NCBI RefSeq assembly: GCF_009914755.1
Contig: NC_060926.1
Origin: the human T2T-CHM13v2.0 reference genome, Homo sapiens
DNA length: 64,000 nucleotides
Reading direction: 5' to 3' (one strand)
Every line of letters begins with the position of its first letter. Positions within the stretch are counted from its first letter, which is position 1. This document shows positions 28,021-38,150 of this stretch, piece by piece. The notes below the pieces were generated by a model, which ran no database searches, had not been told where the DNA came from, and saw only the letters and a list, made by a program, of their open reading frames with translations. A program made the position numbers and the translations under genes.

Positions 28021-30809
28021 TTTAGTAAAGCTACTACATATTTAATAAATATTTAGAAAGTGCTAATTTCATTGTCAAAGGCCCATAAGGAAAAAAATAA
28101 TAATGAAAACATTACAAAATTCACTAATAAAATTTTCCCAATTTTCTCAACCTGTATTCTGATTTAGCTGGGCTTTATGTGGGTTTTGTTGCAACGGACC
28201 AAAGGTAGGTGACAATTGATTTCTTGTATATTCCCTTGTATACCCACTTTAAGTTTAAATCCAGCCATTTAAAAATGAAATGTGTCATCATTTTTATATA
28301 ATTCAAACTGCTTTTGTTAAACAGGGCTTACCACTCTGGATTAACATTTACTTCCTTTATTTTCACTATTCAATATTATTCAAATACTATACACATTTCT
28401 AGTTTCTCCTTACCTCTTCTATGTTTCTGCTCTTTTTCTTAAGGCATAGCCTTAGGAAAAAGAAATGTCTCCCCAATTTGAACACCTTAACTTTGTGTTT
28501 ACTATCTGTTCCCAAGTAATTGAAAATAAGAAATAGAAATGCTACTTAAAAACAAACCAAACGAAAAAACCATGATTCCACTAGAGTAGTTACAGTCTTT
28601 CCCTGGAAGTCTCCATGCTGAATCAGAATGACCCCTACTTCAGAATGCTAAAGACGTAGAAGAGTCAGAAATGATATCTGCATAGAACAGAGATTTGAGT
28701 TTGATGCTCTTTCAGATATTTTTCTCACCTTAGGTTGTCTGATTTTATTTCTACACCTTTATGTCCCTTAACTCTTCTACATGAACTCGGTTATCTTTCT
28801 CAGAGTCTGAAACTCATTATTTCCTGAATATGTCTGTGCCTTTCTGCTTCCATGCATTTCCTGAAACTTGGCACTTCCCAAAACTTGGCACCTCTACCAG
28901 AAAAGCCTTTTGACGTCACTCTTCAATTGTCCATGCCCCTGCTATAATTGCAGGAATGTGAAGGAGGCTGTTACCCATAAGAAAAACCAAGCATTCTAGA
29001 CTGCAAAAAATCAGCTTACTAACCTTAATAAACTGGATGGGATACCCTTATAAACTGGTGAGATCTAGAAACTTGTCTATCAAAATTGCTCTTCTTTGGA
29101 AACAAAAAACAAAAACAACAATCGAGATCAGCTTATTAACCTTAATAAACTGGGTGGGATACCCTTAATAAACTGCTATCGCATCCAGTTTATCAAAGTT
29201 AATAAGCCGATCTTGCACTCTAGGGCATTGTCCTCCCTGCTTGTCTTATTTAATTCTTTTTGCTGTGAAAGAGACAGCAATGAATTAATTCCTACGTTCA
29301 ATGAAGAAAATGACTGCCTTCAAGCTTCGTTTCTTCCACAAATCCTTCAATGATGTGCCTGCCTTCCAAAAAATTGGCAGTAAATGCCAACCTTAGCTCT
29401 TTAGTAGCAGGATCATTGCATGAATAATGGGTGGGGGAGAAAAATAAGCATGTAGGGTGATATAAGACATGTGATTCTTCTTCATCACTGCCTCTCATCC
29501 AGTGGGCTACTGGCCCCAGTTACTGCCTCAGCAGTAGTGCACTTAATTCAGCATTCATATTATTTTTATTGAATATAAATAACTAATTCAGGCTCTCTGA
29601 ATGGTAAATTGAACACGTGTATTAGTTCATACTCCTTTCATACTTTATTATAGTTAGCTTAATCACACACAAAATTTATTTCATAAATCGTCTTTTAATG
29701 AACCTTATCAAGACTTACACTGACCATCCATAACTTGCTTCAAATTTTTTATTTGTCTTATACTACCTCTTTCTTAAATATTCAATTAAATTGTAGGAAA
29801 GAATTTACTATATAAGATCCTTCCTCATACAAAATTACTCTTTCTTCAAATCCTTCCTTGCAAAAAAAAATATATTTTCTATTCATAACTTTATGTCTCT
29901 CTTCTATTCATTGGTTCCCTCATATTTTGAACCTCCCTTTTAATAACTTCTGAATTAGACAAAAGTTTTTTTATTCCAATAAAGAATACATCTTCTTTGA
30001 CACATTTTATATAAACCTAGGAAAGAAGTCCTGAACTTCCCACCAGACATTGGTATTCTATAGATGAGAACCATTTTGTAATTTTAAGATTTTTACTATA
30101 CAAAAAGCTCACTGTTTACATGTATTCCATTCACATATATTTAATTTTTTTCAGTTTTACCTAGACCACCTACAAGAAGCAAGATAGTACGCAAACTAGT
30201 CACCATTTAAAGTCATTTTAACCATGTTAAAGCCCATGAACATCAGTGATTTACATAGGTGAAAATCTTAAAGTTAAATTTTAGAAGATACAACACTCTC
30301 TTCAAACTAATAAGTTTAGACTAGTCTTGTTCAATTTATGAGTGATAATTTAAAAGCCATTTAACAACCTGCTAGACACAATGTGCATCACAATATCTGC
30401 ATATACACCTAAACAAATAAATCAAATAAAACCCCCTATAAATAACAACTGATTTCAAGTTATTTACAAAATTGAGATTCATCTACCTGTCCAAATCATG
30501 TTTGTCCCAGTAGGTATGGAAGACAGAGGCAGAGAAGGGGGTCCTATAACATCAAATAAGGAAGGAAGCAGGTGAACGGTATTGCTCAAAGGGAGATTCT
30601 GGAGTTCCTGAGCCACTGCAGAAGTCACCCAACAGTGGTGACACTGAACAAAAATATTCAAGTGGCCACTTGTCTTCCACTGTGGAAAGCCGTTTGTCAT
30701 GTCAAGGGTCAGAGACCCCAGTAAACTTACTTGAGCAAGGCAACTCTCTGGGCTAGTGAAGATGGTTAACTCTAGAATTGATGGGGTGCTTTTTTGGTCT
30801 CTCACCAGG

Positions 30810-32043
30810 GACAATTAAGATATTCTCATCGTCAGTAGCCCTCTGGCTTACAGTAGTAGGCATACTGATTCTGGCCCATGGGCTGGCAAGTCAGGGCCTC
30901 TTCTGGGCATCTCACTGATTCCACAATACTTTCTCAAAATGGGTAGACCTGAGAGGGCAGGGGGCTTGAAGTATTGGCTAATATTTGCACCTTTTGGCTA
31001 TTTGTTTTATCAACCCTTTTGCCCTGTCCCTATTGTTGCACACTTTAAATGCCATGTTAGGGTTGGCTTATAGGGGTTTGAGGTCCCACTGCTGCTTTTT
31101 GTAGCTTCCTTCTGATGTTAGATGCAGATTAGGTAATAAAATGTATACCCGGGAGAGCTTGCCCTTCTGGGGAGTCTGGGTCTGTTTAAGCACATTTCCT
31201 GAGTGCCTCAACTGAATGACTTTTCCCTGAGCTATTTCTCTAACCTTGTCATAATTGACTGGCTTAACCACATACTTTTTCCTCTTCTTTTTTCTCACAG
31301 CACAGAAGCAGATGACAATATTTGTAAGTCATGACAAGTTAAATCAAAGAACATAGATTAACAAACTCCTCCATAAATTTTTCTGGGTTCTCTGAAAACT
31401 GGCCAAATTATTTTCTTGTATAAAGCCAAATTAGACATAAAAATGGCACATGTACTCCAAGTGTTGCCCCATTTCCATCAGCTGCCTCCTACATTTAACA
31501 TAGGTTTGACTTTAGGGGCTGATATGGGGCCTCATTCCTGGTGGTACTGGTTGAGCTTACTTTCTTGGGCAGTGAGGTCTATTATAGGCTGAGGCTATGG
31601 ATAAGGGAGAAGGGATGCCTGATGATCTTGCAGTGGGATCCTTCATTAGAGATCTAGTTGGACTCCGCTACCCAGAATTAGAGGACTGAAGAGATTCTGG
31701 GGAGGGCGTAGGCCTTCTAAAGGGAGTAGCTAGGAGGAGATCCCTTAGGTGCAGCTTCCTAGTGCCCGGAAGCAACAGGAACCAGTAAAGGGCCATAAAA
31801 ACCTGTACATAAGGGACTTCTTTTTATTTTCCATCTTTTTTTTACAGAATAAGTCCAATTGTGAAATATCATTACCACTTATAGAACCATGTTTAAGCCA
31901 AATCTGTTGGTTTCTAATAGAGATTAACCAATGTTGCAATATAAAGCAAGTATCTTTTTCTTTAAGCCAAATATGAATTTGCTCCAATAGCCTAAATGAT
32001 ACCCATCGTGATTCCCCTGTAATGCTTATCATTGTCCCCATGA
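30810..32043 (-). pseudogene. gag: degenerate gammaretrovirus-like gag (MA, CA, NC remnants)
   Basis: MA 'ISQLDLFCKK'; CA 'KPVNYDKVREIAQG' and, in another frame, 'DPDSPEGQAL..HFIT*SASNIRRKLQKAAVGPQTP'; decayed zinc knuckle 'YYCKPEGY'; many frameshifts. Confidence 0.82.
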
Positions 32044-32674
32044 CTAACAAGGATTTTTACTGGACACAGAAGTTTCTCTAAGTCTAGAAAGAGGGAATAC
32101 AAGTAGGCCCTTGCTATTTTTCCCTTTTCAGATTCTCACTTCCTGCAGAGAAGGTGTAAGTATAGATATCAAGGTGTTATGAAAGTGGATTATAAGCATC
32201 TGCTGGTGAAAGAAATACAACAAAAGAAGTATTTTTATTAAGCAATAAGGAAAAGTAAATAAAGTGATAGTAAGAAAAGAAAATGCTATTATAGAAGTGA
32301 TAACTTTAGGGCAGAAAAAAAGAAAAGGCAAGACTAAGATTCCCCCAGGGTGGGCCTCCAACACACAATCCTAGAAGGAATGCCAATGCTGAAAACCCCA
32401 GAGCATCCAAGGGCTGGCCAACAATACCAAAAGCCAAAAACCTGGAGTACCCAAGCATCAGCCAAGCAGCATCCCCACACCAAATGCCAGAAACCCTGGA
32501 GAATCTGAGGACCAACCAAATGCCAAAATCCCTGGAGCATCAGGGAGGCATCCAACAGTGAACCGCAAAGGCCTGGTTGGAGCCACAGAACAACATGACT
32601 CTGGCCTCCATGAGTCCACACAATGGGGGACCTCTCACAATCAATTGTCCTGCCTTAAACAATTGCCCAGGGAG

Positions 32675-35042
<2,368 letters not shown>

Positions 35043-35533
35043 AAACAATTGCCCAGGGAGTCAAAGAAAAAAAAAGACTTCACACAAAACATTCACTTTT
35101 TTAAACAGAAAAATAACATGATTGGCAGAGGAATAAAGTGGAATCGAAGGAGAAAGGACTGGGGGAAGGGGTGACAAGAACACGTTTTGGGGCACTCAAA
35201 TGACCATGGACTTTTAACTACCACTTAGCCAAAGACTTTTATTCCCTAGCTTAACTAATGTTGGTTGGTGAGTTGGTGGTGGAGGGGAGGGGGCGTTGGG
35301 GGATGGCGGTCAGAGAGGACTAGACGAGCCCAAATGGCGTTGACTGATCTTCCATGTGGGACCCAGGTGAAGGTCTCTCCGGGTTTCCTCGGCTTGGGTG
35401 GGCTTGGCTGCCATGCCAGAGGCAGCACAGGGATAGGTGACTTGCTGGCCTCCTGGTAGGAGTAGCTGGTTTCACATGAGGCGTCACCATGGCCACTTGC
35501 CAATTCCCTCAGCTCTGCTGCCCACTGTGAAGG

Positions 35534-35559
35534 ATGATGGCTCTTAAAAGAGCCTTTGG
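35534..35559 (-). promoter_or_regulatory. histone mRNA 3' stem-loop-like element (SLBP-binding consensus)
   Basis: minus strand CCAAA-GGCTCT-TTTA-AGAGCC-ATCAT versus consensus CCAAA-GGYYYU-UYUN-ARRRCC-ACCCA; sequence match only, function untested. Confidence 0.7.
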
Positions 35560-35812
35560 CTAGTGGGACAGCTCTGTAGTGTTAACAGCTCTTGATTGAT
35601 ACAGACTCAGGGTTAGAGCTCTGCAGCTTTTGACCAATGTCTTGCTGTCTCTTGTCAATCTCTGCCTCTTGCTGTCTCATCCTCCCAGTGTCTCAAGCTT
35701 CTTGCTCTCACCATCCTGCTGCCTCTGTCTCTCTTCAATTACCGACTCTCCACTGATCACTGACTACCACCATTGCCACTATCTCACAACCTATGGCTAG
35801 TGACTACCATAA

Positions 35813-36144
35813 TGGACAGTGCAAGACAAGACTTTTCTAAAGACATTCAACAAGAGAATTGAACTGAGCAGAAGGTTGCTTTTTGACCTTGGGGTTAGTA
35901 TCTCACGAGTTAATTATATAATTTGGATATTTAATTGTCTCAGGCTAAGATAATGAGGCATATGTTATGTTCACAGAAAGCATATGCCTTGTCTGGGAAT
36001 AGCACAGGTTAAGTGCTTAGATCAGGAATGTCTCTTTATATTAAGTAGTGCCTAGTTGGATACACTCCATGTTTACCTCATTCTTTTTTGTTTTCTAAGT
36101 CTAATAGTTAATACATTCTTTCTTTAAATATGTTAATCTCTTCA
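35813..36144 (-). mobile_element. putative 5' LTR of the ERV1 remnant
   Basis: minus strand TGAAG...CA followed by ttaTGG (PBS-like position); family not recognised. Confidence 0.3.
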
Positions 36145-36863
36145 ATCAAATTAGAGTCATGTCCTACTTAGGGAAAGTTTTCCACCTTATAGTAACTTGT
36201 CTTTCCTTTCTGTATTCCACCATTTTTAGCCTTGAAGAAGAAACTCCTTTTCTCTTACTAACATGGTTTCAGAAAACATTTTATCACAGCTCACAAGTAC
36301 GGGAAACTGGAATCCATATTCCATGCATATGATTGGCATCTCCTCGTATAAACTCCTATAGACATGAAGCTAGCAGGTTAGCAGGTTGAAAATATGTAGC
36401 TAGCAGGTTAGCAAGGTTAGCAAGCTGAAAATATGTAACCTCACAATTCTTATATTTGAAAATATAAATTATATTTTAAATTTGCCAAAATACTCAAAAG
36501 TATAACATTTCTGACATGTCAATTACTTTTCATTGTTTTTAGTAAAAAATTAGTTTTTGGTTGTTTCAAATATATTTTATTTATAAACTGTATAAAATAA
36601 TAATCATTATTTTATACAAGTGTTTCAAAAATGCAATGAGATAATATGCAAAATATATACATTATAAAACTATTTATAAATGACCATATTTAATATCACT
36701 AAATATTTATCTTATTTTTGTAACAAGTATGTAAAATTGCAAAGTAAGGAACATACCATTGGTACATGTCAGCACACATTTATAGGTCAGGAATAAATGC
36801 ACTTTAAATGACAGGAATGGACAAGAAGCACCTTTTTAAAATAGCAAACACTTATAGAAATAA

Positions 36864-37601
<738 letters not shown>

Positions 37602-37669
37602 CTATAATTTTTCTTGGAAGAATATAAGCATATCCATGAATCTGGGGCTTCCAAGGCCCCAGAAAATCA

Positions 37670-38150
37670 GATATCCTGGGTTTGAGTTCGGCTTCTACTA
37701 TTGCATATAAGACCTTGGGCAAATCACATAATAGCCTTTACCTTCAAAGTCCTCTTATATAAAATAAAGACAGCTTTTACCCTGCCTCTCTCACATGCTT
37801 GTTGAGATGTATGGGTGTATGAGTGTTTATATCCATGTGTGCATGTATATGTGTATGTGTATGTATATATACCTAAAAATGCCAAACAATAATAAAATGA
37901 AAAGTATTCGTATATTTTATTCAAGTCGAGAAGCATTTCCTCATTTTTACTATCAGCTCTAAGTCAGGTGTGATACTGAGAACTTTACTTCCATTGCCTC
38001 TGTTTATCTCTATGAGGTACAGTTACTATTCTTCTTTTCCAGATGAAGAAATTGAGAATTCAAAGTGTTAATTAATTACCTAAAATAAGACTAATGGTAA
38101 ATGGCATAGCAGGGATTTAAAAATGGGAGTCTAGCCTAACCTCAAAGCCT
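37670..38150. mobile_element. two MIR fragments (+ ~37670-37810; - ~37935-38150)
   Basis: 'gaccttgggcaaatcac' and 'ccagatgaagaaattgag'. Confidence 0.65.

What the first reader, a model, noticed from the sequence alone, without database searches (positions are those of the whole stretch)
35508..35625. Cluster of four U7 snRNA-complementary (HDE-like) motifs bracketing the stem-loop
Seen on +: cagctctg (35510-17), tagtgggacagctctg (35561-76), tagtgttaacagctctt (35577-93) and cagggttagagctctg (35608-23). These resemble the U7 5' end CAGTGTTACAGCTCTTTT, so the proviral-sense RNA carries (A/C)AGAGCTG(T)AACAC-like histone downstream elements. One lies 22 nt 3' of the stem-loop, slightly farther than usual; three lie 5' of it as a degenerate tandem array. 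From memory, HDE-like motifs in LTR12/ERV9 LTRs have been linked to U7-dependent repression. A stem-loop plus a multi-HDE cassette in an internal leader goes beyond that. Inference: a complete histone-like processing module, acting either as viral mimicry (U7 snRNP decoy or premature 3' end) or as a host restriction handle.
Basis: partly seen in the sequence, partly recalled or inferred. Interest (0 to 1): 0.78.

Follow-up and report, generated by a model that had tools for sequence, protein, structure and literature searches.

The report
Histone hairpin and U7 sites in retrovirus relic
An ancient, dead retrovirus fragment in human chromosome 2 carries, just after where its promoter once sat, a near-perfect copy of the hairpin that ends histone messages plus a row of sites that match the U7 small RNA, but they are not arranged as a working histone-type cutting signal.

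Summary
All four strings and the hairpin are at the stated coordinates. The window minus strand is the sense strand of an old gamma-like ERV fragment (29644-32674 and 35043-~35795, split by an L1) that lacks its 5' LTR and primer-binding site.

The three motifs 5' of the hairpin are real. M1 is the best U7(1-20) pairing site in the whole 64-kb window (-20.6 kcal/mol). In other genomic copies the same positions sit closer to the U7 complement: 23 of 32 independent copies keep at least one motif within 2 mismatches of the published HDE-like 15-mer, and 31 of 32 beat 95% of their own shuffles.

The hairpin is a true histone type (Rfam Histone3, 31 bits; exact canonical 16-mer in 12 of 38 copies).

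The motif 3' of the hairpin, the only one placed as an HDE should be, is at chance level, and its columns carry a CpG-decay signature.

So there is no complete processing module. There is an ancestral leader cassette in reversed order: U7 sites, then an SLBP-type hairpin. It extends the known LTR12/U7 link to an older family and adds a histone hairpin. Function is untested, and this copy is a decayed relic.

The parts
35539..35554 (-). Histone-type stem-loop core: 6-bp stem and 4-nt loop TTTA on the minus strand, with 5' flank CCAAA and 3' flank ATCAT
   Evidence: Sequence read. Rfam Histone3 RF00032 matches 35559-35515, minus strand, 31.0 bits (gathering score 34), E 5e-6, and E 7.5e-4 in the whole-genome search. 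The hairpin forms in the minimum-energy fold of 35640-35480. The loop variant TTTA also occurs in real human histone genes.
35578..35593 (-). M1: U7-complementary unit AAGAGCTGTTAACACT (9 + 6 paired bases with a one-base bulge)
   Evidence: U7(1-20) duplex of -20.6 kcal/mol, the best of all 63,978 windows in the 64 kb. Other copies mostly read AAGAGCTGCTAACACT at this position.
35562..35576 (-). M2: U7-complementary unit CAGAGCTGTCCCACT, ending 2 nt before the hairpin's CCAAA flank
   Evidence: Duplex of -17.6 kcal/mol. It has 3 mismatches to the published 15-mer. The commonest form at this position among 32 independent copies is CAGAGCTGTAACACT (5 exact copies plus near variants).
35608..35623 (-). 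M3: U7-complementary unit CAGAGCTCTAACCCTG
   Evidence: Duplex of -15.3 kcal/mol. It has 3 mismatches to the published 15-mer. Other copies read AAGAGCT(A/G)TAACACTG, which pairs with U7 from base 1.
35594..35607 (-). Degenerate fourth unit of the same roughly 16-17-nt tandem repeat, lying between M3 and M1
   Evidence: The alignment shows GAGGCTGTAACAAT-like sequence here in other copies. The window copy is more decayed.
35510..35517 (-). M4: CAGAGCTG 3' of the hairpin. It is at chance level and shows the signature of two CpG decays
   Evidence: The 24-nt window holding M4 gives -11.6 kcal/mol. The downstream 50 nt give -12.9, and 14.6% of shuffles do as well. Among 32 independent copies the column pairs split into CA, TG and CG, and the end into CTG, CCA and CCG; CAGAGCTG itself occurs in 6 of 32.
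35640..35795 (-). GA-rich degenerate repeats of the leader (GACAG / GGCAA type), variable in length between copies. Family homology begins here in this copy
   Evidence: Alignment with L002, L003 and L021-L024. BLAST end points at 35740-35787.
35043..35795 (-). 5' part of the ERV internal fragment (leader)
   Evidence: Homology to 19 other loci and 42 genomic matches. No LTR or PBS is detectable upstream.
29644..32674 (-). Continuation of the same ERV internal fragment (gag region), ending abruptly at 29644
   Evidence: Gag_p30 is found in the homologous parts of L024, L027 and L021. No Pfam hit was found in the window copy itself.
32675..35042 (+). L1 3' fragment inserted into the ERV, with an A/CA-rich tail at about 35010-35051 and a duplicated target of about 16 nt. 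It is not part of the cassette.
   Evidence: Family homology stops at 32674 and resumes at 35043, with overlapping subject coordinates. L1-like 3' sequence was read, recognised from memory of L1.

Best explanation
The finding lies in the 5' leader of a truncated, L1-interrupted copy of an old gamma-like (class I) endogenous retrovirus on the minus strand.

The founder of this family carried a compact leader cassette between the primer-binding site and gag. It held three to four tandem ~16-17-nt units complementary to the first 15-16 bases of U7 snRNA, followed 2-7 nt later by a hairpin that matches the replication-dependent histone 3' stem-loop, including its CCAAA 5' flank.

The order (U7 sites, then hairpin) is the reverse of a histone pre-mRNA, and no ancestral U7 site follows the hairpin. 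The cassette is therefore not a histone-type cleavage module.

The most likely working (inferred, not shown) is as follows. On the viral or proviral transcript, the repeats paired with U7 snRNA, as the LTR12 HDE-like motifs do, making expression U7-sensitive (repression). The hairpin offered a binding site for SLBP.

The window copy has lost its LTR and primer-binding site, and all three of its units now fail the published 2-mismatch rule. It is a decayed relic with no expected activity today.
For: Shown:
- Family and strand. There are 42 genomic matches to the leader and 55 to the gag-side part. Gag_p30 is found in the sense of the window minus strand (L024 E 3e-12, L027 E 4e-15). One copy (L023) has an LTR pair, and LTR ends ..CATCA plus TGGTGACC-like sites lie 200-280 nt 5' of the hairpin.
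- Hairpin. Histone3 scores 31 bits here, and 23 of 34 scanned sequences (the window plus 33 loci) give a hit, best 33.2, none at 34 or more. Five family copies are among the top 65 genome-wide Histone3 hits, beside real histone genes scoring 31.5-42.7. The exact canonical 16-mer is present in 12 of 38 copies and a 6-bp stem in 19 of 38. The exact 21-mer with the family's own 3' flank has 14 genome hits against 0 for the reversed control. At least 12 of these are family copies, and 1 lies in the chr6 histone-cluster region and was not examined.
- U7 sites. The upstream 100 nt beat 95% of their own dinucleotide shuffles in 31 of 32 independent copies, with a median of -21.9 kcal/mol, against -15.8 for 41 real human HDE regions. 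At least one motif within 2 mismatches of AAGAGCTGTAACACT is found in 25 of 38 copies (23 of 32 independent). All hits in seven 10-kb loci are on the sense strand.
- In M3-type units complementarity stops at U7 base 1 and does not run on into the U7 gene's upstream DNA.
- No real human histone 3' UTR has comparable U7 complementarity 5' of its hairpin (best -15.7, median -9.95, n=40).

Published: U7 represses LTR12 elements through such motifs, shown by motif mutation (PMC11417402; passages read).
Against: - No binding, expression or processing data exist for this family.
- None of the family's hairpins reaches Rfam's gathering score.
- The 3' flank is ATCAT rather than ACCCA in 22 of 32 independent copies.
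- The family tree is star-like, with terminal branches of median 0.22 and internal branches of 0.02-0.07. Sharing among copies therefore shows ancestry, not selection.
- The hairpin bins are the best-kept in the leader (0.88-0.91 against about 0.8), but the lack of CpG there could explain that.
- The LTR12 mechanism needs CCAAT/NF-Y sites in a promoter. Here the motifs lie in an internal leader, and conserved CCAAT boxes were not examined.
- The '-int' repeats I saw in Table S4 of PMC11417402 were HERV9, HERV9NC, HERVH, HERVS71, MER76, THE1B, HERVL and MLT1J1. I could not name this family, so I cannot say whether any of its copies responded to U7 knock-down.
- Of the words beginning 347, 348 or 349 in the supplement, none was a coordinate. 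The offset between hg38 and T2T coordinates is unknown to me.
Confidence: 0.45

Rival explanations
1. One reading: a complete histone-type 3'-end processing module. SLBP binds the hairpin, U7 pairs 3' of it, and CPSF73 cuts between them, giving a short non-polyadenylated leader RNA.
For: A histone-type hairpin is present. AGAGCTG lies 22 nt 3' of it in this copy. Its energy overlaps the weakest real HDEs (-10.9 to -12.8).
Against: - Downstream complementarity is at chance level in the window (14.6% of shuffles as good). It is also at chance in 28 of 32 independent copies.
- It is weaker than real HDEs (Mann-Whitney p 4e-8).
- The motif's CA and TG sit in columns that split CA/TG/CG among copies, so it looks like a decay product.
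- That 15-nt bin is among the less conserved (0.70).
- The spacing of 22 nt compares with 11-19 nt in real genes.
- The 3' flank is ATCAT, not ACCCA.
Confidence: 0.05
2. Neutral passenger. The hairpin was picked up from the 3' end of a co-packaged mature histone mRNA by template switching. The U7-complementary units are a slipped tandem repeat with no role. The cassette simply rode along in the one lineage that amplified.
For: - Identity to histone mRNA covers the CCAAA flank, the stem-loop and the first A, then stops about where mature histone mRNA ends.
- The hairpin is in the sense orientation.
- The star-like tree means one founder, so sharing needs no selection.
- The units form a short-period tandem array.
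Against: - This does not explain why the repeated unit matches U7 bases 1-16 so well, in several units, right beside a histone hairpin (median -21.9 kcal/mol, 31 of 32 copies above their own shuffles).
- No present human histone 3' UTR carries such a unit.
- A similar motif acts on U7 in LTR12 (PMC11417402).
Confidence: 0.3
3. The hairpin is an ordinary retroviral leader hairpin (packaging or dimerisation signal), and its likeness to the histone stem-loop is convergent or accidental.
For: It sits 200-280 nt after the primer-binding site. From memory, gammaretroviruses keep packaging hairpins in that region.
Against: - A match of about 22 bases including flank and loop, E about 1e-4 to 7.5e-4 per genome for single copies, is unlikely by accident.
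- It sits beside U7-complementary units.
- The overall fold of the region is not unusually stable (z -0.82).
Confidence: 0.1
4. A U7 pseudogene fragment or a histone pseudogene lying in the ERV.
For: The + strand reads like the U7 5' end three times. U7 pseudogenes are common (65 matches listed, all over the cut-off).
Against: - There is no Rfam U7 match on either strand of 33000-38000 at E up to 10.
- Likeness ends after about 16 bases, and no Sm site follows.
- No histone domain was found in the reading frames around it.
- The same arrangement is shared by more than 35 dispersed copies of the ERV.
Confidence: 0.01

Closest known systems
HDE-like motifs of LTR12 (HERV9 LTRs) that mediate repression by U7 snRNA (Plewka et al., Nucleic Acids Res 2024, PMC11417402)
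   Same: - The same 15-nt type of sequence, complementary to U7 bases 2-16.
- Sense orientation.
- Several copies close together near the 5' end of the transcript.
- A class I (ERV1) element.
- In other copies of this family the units meet the paper's rule of 2 mismatches or fewer (25 of 38 copies).
   Different: - The site is in the internal leader after the primer-binding site, not in the LTR.
- The family is different and much older (copies about 70-77% identical to the window copy).
- A canonical histone hairpin follows directly.
- The window copy itself fails the 2-mismatch rule.
- No evidence on NF-Y/CCAAT or on U7 knock-down.
3' processing signal of replication-dependent histone pre-mRNA (stem-loop bound by SLBP, plus the HDE bound by U7 snRNP)
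   Same: - The hairpin with its CCAAA flank is the same as in human histone genes.
- The U7-pairing sequences are stronger than most real HDEs.
   Different: - The order is reversed (U7 sites 5' of the hairpin).
- There is no ancestral HDE 3' of it.
- The 3' flank is ATCAT, not ACCCA.
- There is no histone reading frame.
- It lies at the 5' end of a retroviral RNA rather than the 3' end of an mRNA.
Leader hairpins of gammaretroviruses (packaging/dimerisation region); recalled, not tested
   Same: Position between the primer-binding site and gag.
   Different: The sequence is that of the histone stem-loop, not of GACG-type packaging hairpins (recalled). No packaging evidence.

Membership tests
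Histone 3' stem-loop (Rfam RF00032) as part of a histone processing signal | Score at or above the curated gathering score (34 bits) | tested here: not met
   The window scores 31.0 bits. The best family copy scores 33.2, and none of the 23 hits in the 34 sequences scanned (window plus 33 loci) reaches 34. For comparison, 8 matches in the chr6 histone-cluster region also fall at 31.5-33.7.
Histone 3' stem-loop (Rfam RF00032) as part of a histone processing signal | 6-bp GGYYYU/ARRRCC stem, 4-nt U-rich loop, A-rich 5' flank | tested here: met
   The window reads CCAAA GGCTCT TTTA AGAGCC. The exact canonical 16-mer with loop TTTC occurs in 12 of 38 copies, and CCAAA in 22 of 32 independent copies. 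The list of determinants is recalled.
Histone 3' stem-loop (Rfam RF00032) as part of a histone processing signal | ACCCA-type 3' flank with the cleavage site | tested here: not met
   ATCAT in the window and in 22 of 32 independent copies.
Histone 3' stem-loop (Rfam RF00032) as part of a histone processing signal | U7-complementary HDE about 11-19 nt 3' of the stem | tested here: not met
   The window gives -12.9 kcal/mol starting at nt 22, at shuffle level. Only 4 of 32 copies rise above their own shuffles. The motif shows the signature of CpG decay.
Histone 3' stem-loop (Rfam RF00032) as part of a histone processing signal | Lies just 3' of a histone coding sequence | tested here: not met
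   No histone domain was found in the frames scanned. The element is an ERV leader.
LTR12-type HDE-like motif (PMC11417402) | 15-mer within 2 mismatches of AAGAGCTGTAACACT | tested here: not met
   The window has 0 such sites and two at 3 mismatches (35562-35576 and 35609-35623); M1 needs a one-base bulge. The family does meet the rule: 25 of 38 copies, or 23 of 32 independent.
LTR12-type HDE-like motif (PMC11417402) | Located in an LTR12 element, with CCAAT/NF-Y sites nearby | tested here: not met
   The motifs lie in the internal leader of a different, older ERV1 family, after the LTR end and primer-binding site. Conserved CCAAT boxes were not examined.
LTR12-type HDE-like motif (PMC11417402) | Transcript level rises on U7 depletion or motif mutation | not testable with these tools
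   Only the paper's Table S4 could be searched. The '-int' repeats seen were of other named families, and this family's name is unknown to me.
U7 snRNA gene or pseudogene (Rfam RF00066) | Match to the U7 model (5' arm, Sm site, 3' hairpin) | tested here: not met
   No U7 match in 33000-38000 on either strand at E up to 10. The true U7 gene and its pseudogenes score 53-81 bits elsewhere.
Gamma-like (class I, ERV1) endogenous retrovirus | Gag_p30 capsid domain, LTR pair, primer-binding site | tested here: met
   These features are met in other copies. Gag_p30 is found in L024 (46.9 bits) and L027 (56.2 bits), against a cut-off of 27.4. L023 has an LTR pair. TGGTGACC-like sites follow ..CATCA. 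The window copy has none of the three detectable. The Repbase/Dfam family name was not determined, as no repeat library is on hand.

The most novel reading that the evidence does not exclude
An extinct gammaretrovirus-like lineage that entered the genome roughly 60-100 million years ago carried a deliberate mimic of both RNA signals of histone mRNA 3' processing. The mimic was an SLBP hairpin plus multiple U7 pairing sites, re-ordered so that the RNA binds the S-phase histone machinery without being cut.

This would be the first histone-type hairpin in a retroviral genome. It would show that the retrovirus-U7 relation seen in LTR12 is much older, is not confined to LTRs, and involves SLBP. The purpose could have been cell-cycle or germline-specific control of genomic RNA, or titration of U7 and SLBP.
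Probability: 0.3. Interest if true: 0.8.

Novelty: new variant of a known kind. Interest (0 to 1): 0.6.

Why it matters
U7-complementary motifs in human retroviral LTR12 elements were recently shown to make those elements U7-repressed. This finding suggests the link is not peculiar to LTR12.

A much older class I family had the same kind of motif, multiplied, in its leader, and joined it to a canonical histone hairpin. I know of no mobile element reported to carry such a hairpin, and three literature searches found none.

If SLBP and U7 do bind, this gives a natural system for asking how U7 and SLBP act away from histone genes. It would also show whether ancient retroviruses tied their expression to the S-phase or germline histone machinery.

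There is a practical point too. Copies of this family are among the best non-histone hits of the Rfam histone model in the human genome, and one lies inside the chr6 histone-cluster region.

Tried and rejected
- Histone or processed-histone pseudogene. Frames upstream of the hairpin gave no histone domain, so I rejected this.
- L1 5' UTR. I considered this because of ragged end points. It was rejected once Gag_p30, an LTR pair and a PBS-like site were found in other copies.
- Pfam on the window copy's own frames. 22 + 86 frames gave nothing credible, so coding evidence had to come from other copies.
- Search for a 5' LTR in the window. The genome search with 35630-36130 found only a 58-nt match. 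Local alignment to four LTRs scored at shuffle level. There is also no LTR-like direct repeat within the window.
- Capture of the antisense U7 gene. Complementarity ends at U7 base 1 and does not continue into the promoter, so I rejected this.
- Capture of the whole cassette from a histone 3' UTR. None of 40 distinct human histone 3' UTRs has a comparable unit.
- Conservation as evidence of selection. I abandoned this because the tree is star-like.
- Loop variants (TTTC, TTTA, TTGA) as subfamily markers. They are not clustered on the tree: 12 changes against a shuffled mean of 12.0.
- Exact genome-wide pattern 'unit within 40 nt of a perfect hairpin'. It gave only 1 hit, which is too strict for decayed copies.
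- Naming the family was not possible without a repeat library.
- Table S4 of PMC11417402 gave no usable link to this family or locus.

Full report
**1. What is in the sequence**

The window is human T2T chr2:34906001-34970000, and the whole assembly could be searched as G000.

On the minus strand, from 35623 down to 35510, the order is:
- M3: CAGAGCTCTAACCCTG
- a decayed repeat unit
- M1: AAGAGCTGTTAACACT
- M2: CAGAGCTGTCCCACT
- AG
- the hairpin CCAAA-GGCTCT-TTTA-AGAGCC-ATCAT
- 21 further bases
- M4: CAGAGCTG

Rfam's histone 3' stem-loop model matches 35559-35515 on the minus strand with 31.0 bits (gathering score 34), E 5e-6. No U7 model match appears on either strand.

**2. What the surrounding element is**

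The 501 bases around the site match 41 other places in the genome at 67-90% identity. Homology to those loci runs from about 35790 to 35043. It stops at an L1 3' fragment (32675-35042, + strand, with a duplicated target of about 16 nt). It then resumes from 32674 down to a sharp end at 29644.

The window copy's own reading frames gave no credible Pfam hit (22 and 86 frames). In other copies, frames in the orientation of the window minus strand carry the gammaretroviral capsid domain Gag_p30: L024 at 46.9 bits and L027 at 56.2 bits, against a cut-off of 27.4 (93 frames scanned, 3 with Gag_p30 at E of 0.01 or less).

One copy (L023) has a flanking direct repeat, 73.6% identical over 383 nt, that is an LTR pair. 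In four copies the LTR ends in ..CATCA and is followed by a TGGTGACC-like primer-binding site. The hairpin lies 200-280 nt further on, after a GA-rich repeat stretch of variable length.

The window copy itself has no detectable LTR or primer-binding site.

I could not give the family its Repbase/Dfam name, because no repeat library is on hand.

The family tree of 26 leaders is star-like, with terminal branches of median 0.22 changes per site and internal branches of 0.02-0.07. With a recalled neutral rate of about 2.2e-9 per site per year, the terminal branches and the LTR-pair divergence point to an age of very roughly 60-100 million years.

**3. The hairpin**

In an alignment of 37 other copies (31 independent after dropping X/Y and IGK-locus duplicates), the block CCAAA-hairpin-ATCAT is the best-kept 30 nt of the leader. 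Its plurality fraction is 0.88-0.91, against about 0.8 elsewhere.
- The exact canonical histone 16-mer (loop TTTC) is present in 12 of 38 copies.
- A full 6-bp stem is present in 19 of 38.
- Among 32 independent copies, loops are TTTC in 14, TTTA in 9 and TTGA in 4.
- The window's TTTA loop also occurs in real human histone genes.

Histone3 hits were found in 23 of the 34 sequences scanned (the window plus 33 loci). The best was 33.2 bits and none reached 34.

In a whole-genome search, 5 family copies including this one are among the 65 listed hits. The others are almost all in the histone clusters, and real histone genes score 31.5-42.7 bits. The window's E-value there is 7.5e-4 per genome.

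The exact 21-mer with the family's own flank occurs 14 times in the genome, against 0 for the reversed control. At least 12 are family copies, one of them inside the chr6 histone-cluster region; one other site in that region was not examined.

The hairpin forms in the minimum-energy fold of its context, but the region as a whole is not unusually stable (z -0.82).

**4. The U7-complementary units 5' of the hairpin**

I took U7 from the genome itself (chr12 locus). Duplex energies of U7 bases 1-20:

| Target | Energy (kcal/mol) |
|---|---|
| M1 | -20.6 |
| M2 | -17.6 |
| M3 | -15.3 |
| M4 | -11.6 |
| perfect complement | -31.3 |

M1 is the minimum of all 63,978 24-nt windows on both strands, and only 34 separate sites reach -15.

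The published HDE-like consensus is AAGAGCTGTAACACT with up to 2 mismatches (PMC11417402, methods passage). By that rule the window copy has no site. M2 and M3 have 3 mismatches each and M1 needs a one-base bulge. At 3 mismatches the window as a whole is not enriched: 4 sites against 2.6 expected.

The other copies settle the matter.
- At M2 the commonest form is CAGAGCTGTAACACT.
- At M3 it is AAGAGCT(A/G)TAACACTG.
- At M1 it is AAGAGCTGCTAACACT.
- 25 of 38 copies (23 of 32 independent) keep at least one site within 2 mismatches.
- The upstream 100 nt beat 95% of their own dinucleotide shuffles in 31 of 32 independent copies, with a median of -21.9 kcal/mol.
- 41 real human HDE regions have a median of -15.8.

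All hits in seven 10-kb loci are on the sense strand and in the leader. The exception is one copy whose two LTRs carry a further unit just 5' of AATAAA.

In M3-type units complementarity stops at U7 base 1 and does not continue into the U7 promoter. No human histone 3' UTR has a comparable unit 5' of its hairpin (best -15.7, median -9.95, n=40).

**5. The motif 3' of the hairpin**

This is the only motif placed as an HDE should be, and it fails every test.
- The window's downstream 50 nt give -12.9 kcal/mol, and 14.6% of 1000 shuffles do as well.
- Only 4 of 32 independent copies beat 95% of their own shuffles.
- The family median of -11.4 is weaker than real HDEs (Mann-Whitney p 4e-8). That test used 31 of the 32 copies. 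I left out L031, whose sequence after the hairpin is not homologous; one search includes it and gives the same median.
- The duplex starts at nt 22, against 11-19 in real genes.
- Its 15-nt bin is among the less conserved (0.70).
- At its first two bases the 32 independent copies split about evenly between CA and TG, with 2-3 CG. At its end they split into CTG, CCA and CCG. CAGAGCTG itself is present in only 6 of 32.

That pattern is the mark of two decayed CpGs. The likeness to an HDE in this copy therefore arose after insertion.

**6. How it most likely worked**

Shown: the founder of this family had three to four tandem U7-complementary units directly 5' of a canonical histone hairpin, in the leader of its genomic RNA.

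Inferred from geometry and from recalled knowledge of the U7 'molecular ruler': the arrangement cannot direct the normal cut between hairpin and HDE.

By analogy with LTR12, my leading model is that the units made the transcript U7-sensitive and that the hairpin bound SLBP. In LTR12, mutation of such motifs relieved U7-dependent repression (PMC11417402; passages read). I put this model at about 0.45.

A neutral passenger origin cannot be excluded, because the star-like tree removes any test of selection (about 0.3). In that reading, the hairpin was captured from a mature histone mRNA end, and identity stops about where such mRNAs end.

**7. Known or new**

The U7/LTR12 link is published. I found no paper on a histone-type hairpin in a retroviral element.
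- 'histone stem-loop' with 'endogenous retrovirus' gave 0 papers.
- 'HDE-like' gave 6 papers, 5 listed, and none of the titles or abstract starts shown concerns this.
- A six-term search returned 3,008 papers. All 15 listed showed zero occurrences of 'histone stem-loop'.

Subscription papers and repeat-library notes were not searchable.

Of PMC11417402 I saw the search listing, the start of the abstract, the passages returned by two term searches, and parts of the supplement (the file list and three term searches). Of the other papers I saw only the listings.

**8. Verdict**

The processing-module reading is not supported. What remains is an apparently undescribed ancestral cassette of an old class I ERV that copies both histone 3'-end signals in reversed order.

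This copy is a decayed relic: no LTR, an L1 inserted, and eroded motifs. Interest lies in the family, not the locus.

Noticed in passing
window 32675-35042 (+), tail to about 35051: An L1 3' fragment is inserted into the ERV leader/gag junction. ERV homology overlaps by about 16 nt on the two sides, which looks like a target-site duplication.
   Followed up: partly
G000:C6:26983204-26983224 (locus L083): A copy of the same or a sister ERV family with a perfect canonical histone hairpin lies inside the major histone gene cluster region of chr6. It could be mistaken for a histone 3' end by motif scans.
   Followed up: partly
L023 (G000:C5:97891300-97901299), both LTRs, about 20 nt 5' of AATAAA: A further U7-complementary unit sits in the LTR just before the poly(A) signal of this copy: 2 mismatches to the published 15-mer in the 5' LTR and 3 in the 3' LTR. 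It was not seen at 3 mismatches or fewer in three other LTRs.
   Followed up: partly
window 35539-35554 and L048:1511-1518: U7 bases 11-18 (GCTCTTTT) are identical to the 5' arm plus loop of the histone hairpin. Each U7-complementary unit could therefore also pair with the hairpin's 5' arm, giving an alternative structure. In the window's minimum-energy fold the hairpin still forms.
   Followed up: partly
G000:C2:88.9-90.7 Mb (loci L032, L036, L037, L044, L045): A roughly 100-nt piece of the cassette (two units plus the hairpin) is present in five near-identical copies in a segmentally duplicated region of chr2, with no further ERV homology detected around it.
   Followed up: no
window 35640-35795 (-): GA-rich degenerate short repeats (GACAG / GGCAA type) lie between the primer-binding site and the U7-complementary units. 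Their length varies between copies.
   Followed up: no
window 32300-32670: Short tandem-like repeats in the ERV's gag-proximal part give repetitive frames on both strands. There was no Pfam hit.
   Followed up: no
window 37272-37607 (-) and 37807-37879: An Alu (partial SRP RNA matches) and a TG/TA-rich simple repeat that draws weak mir-297 matches. Both are ordinary.
   Followed up: no
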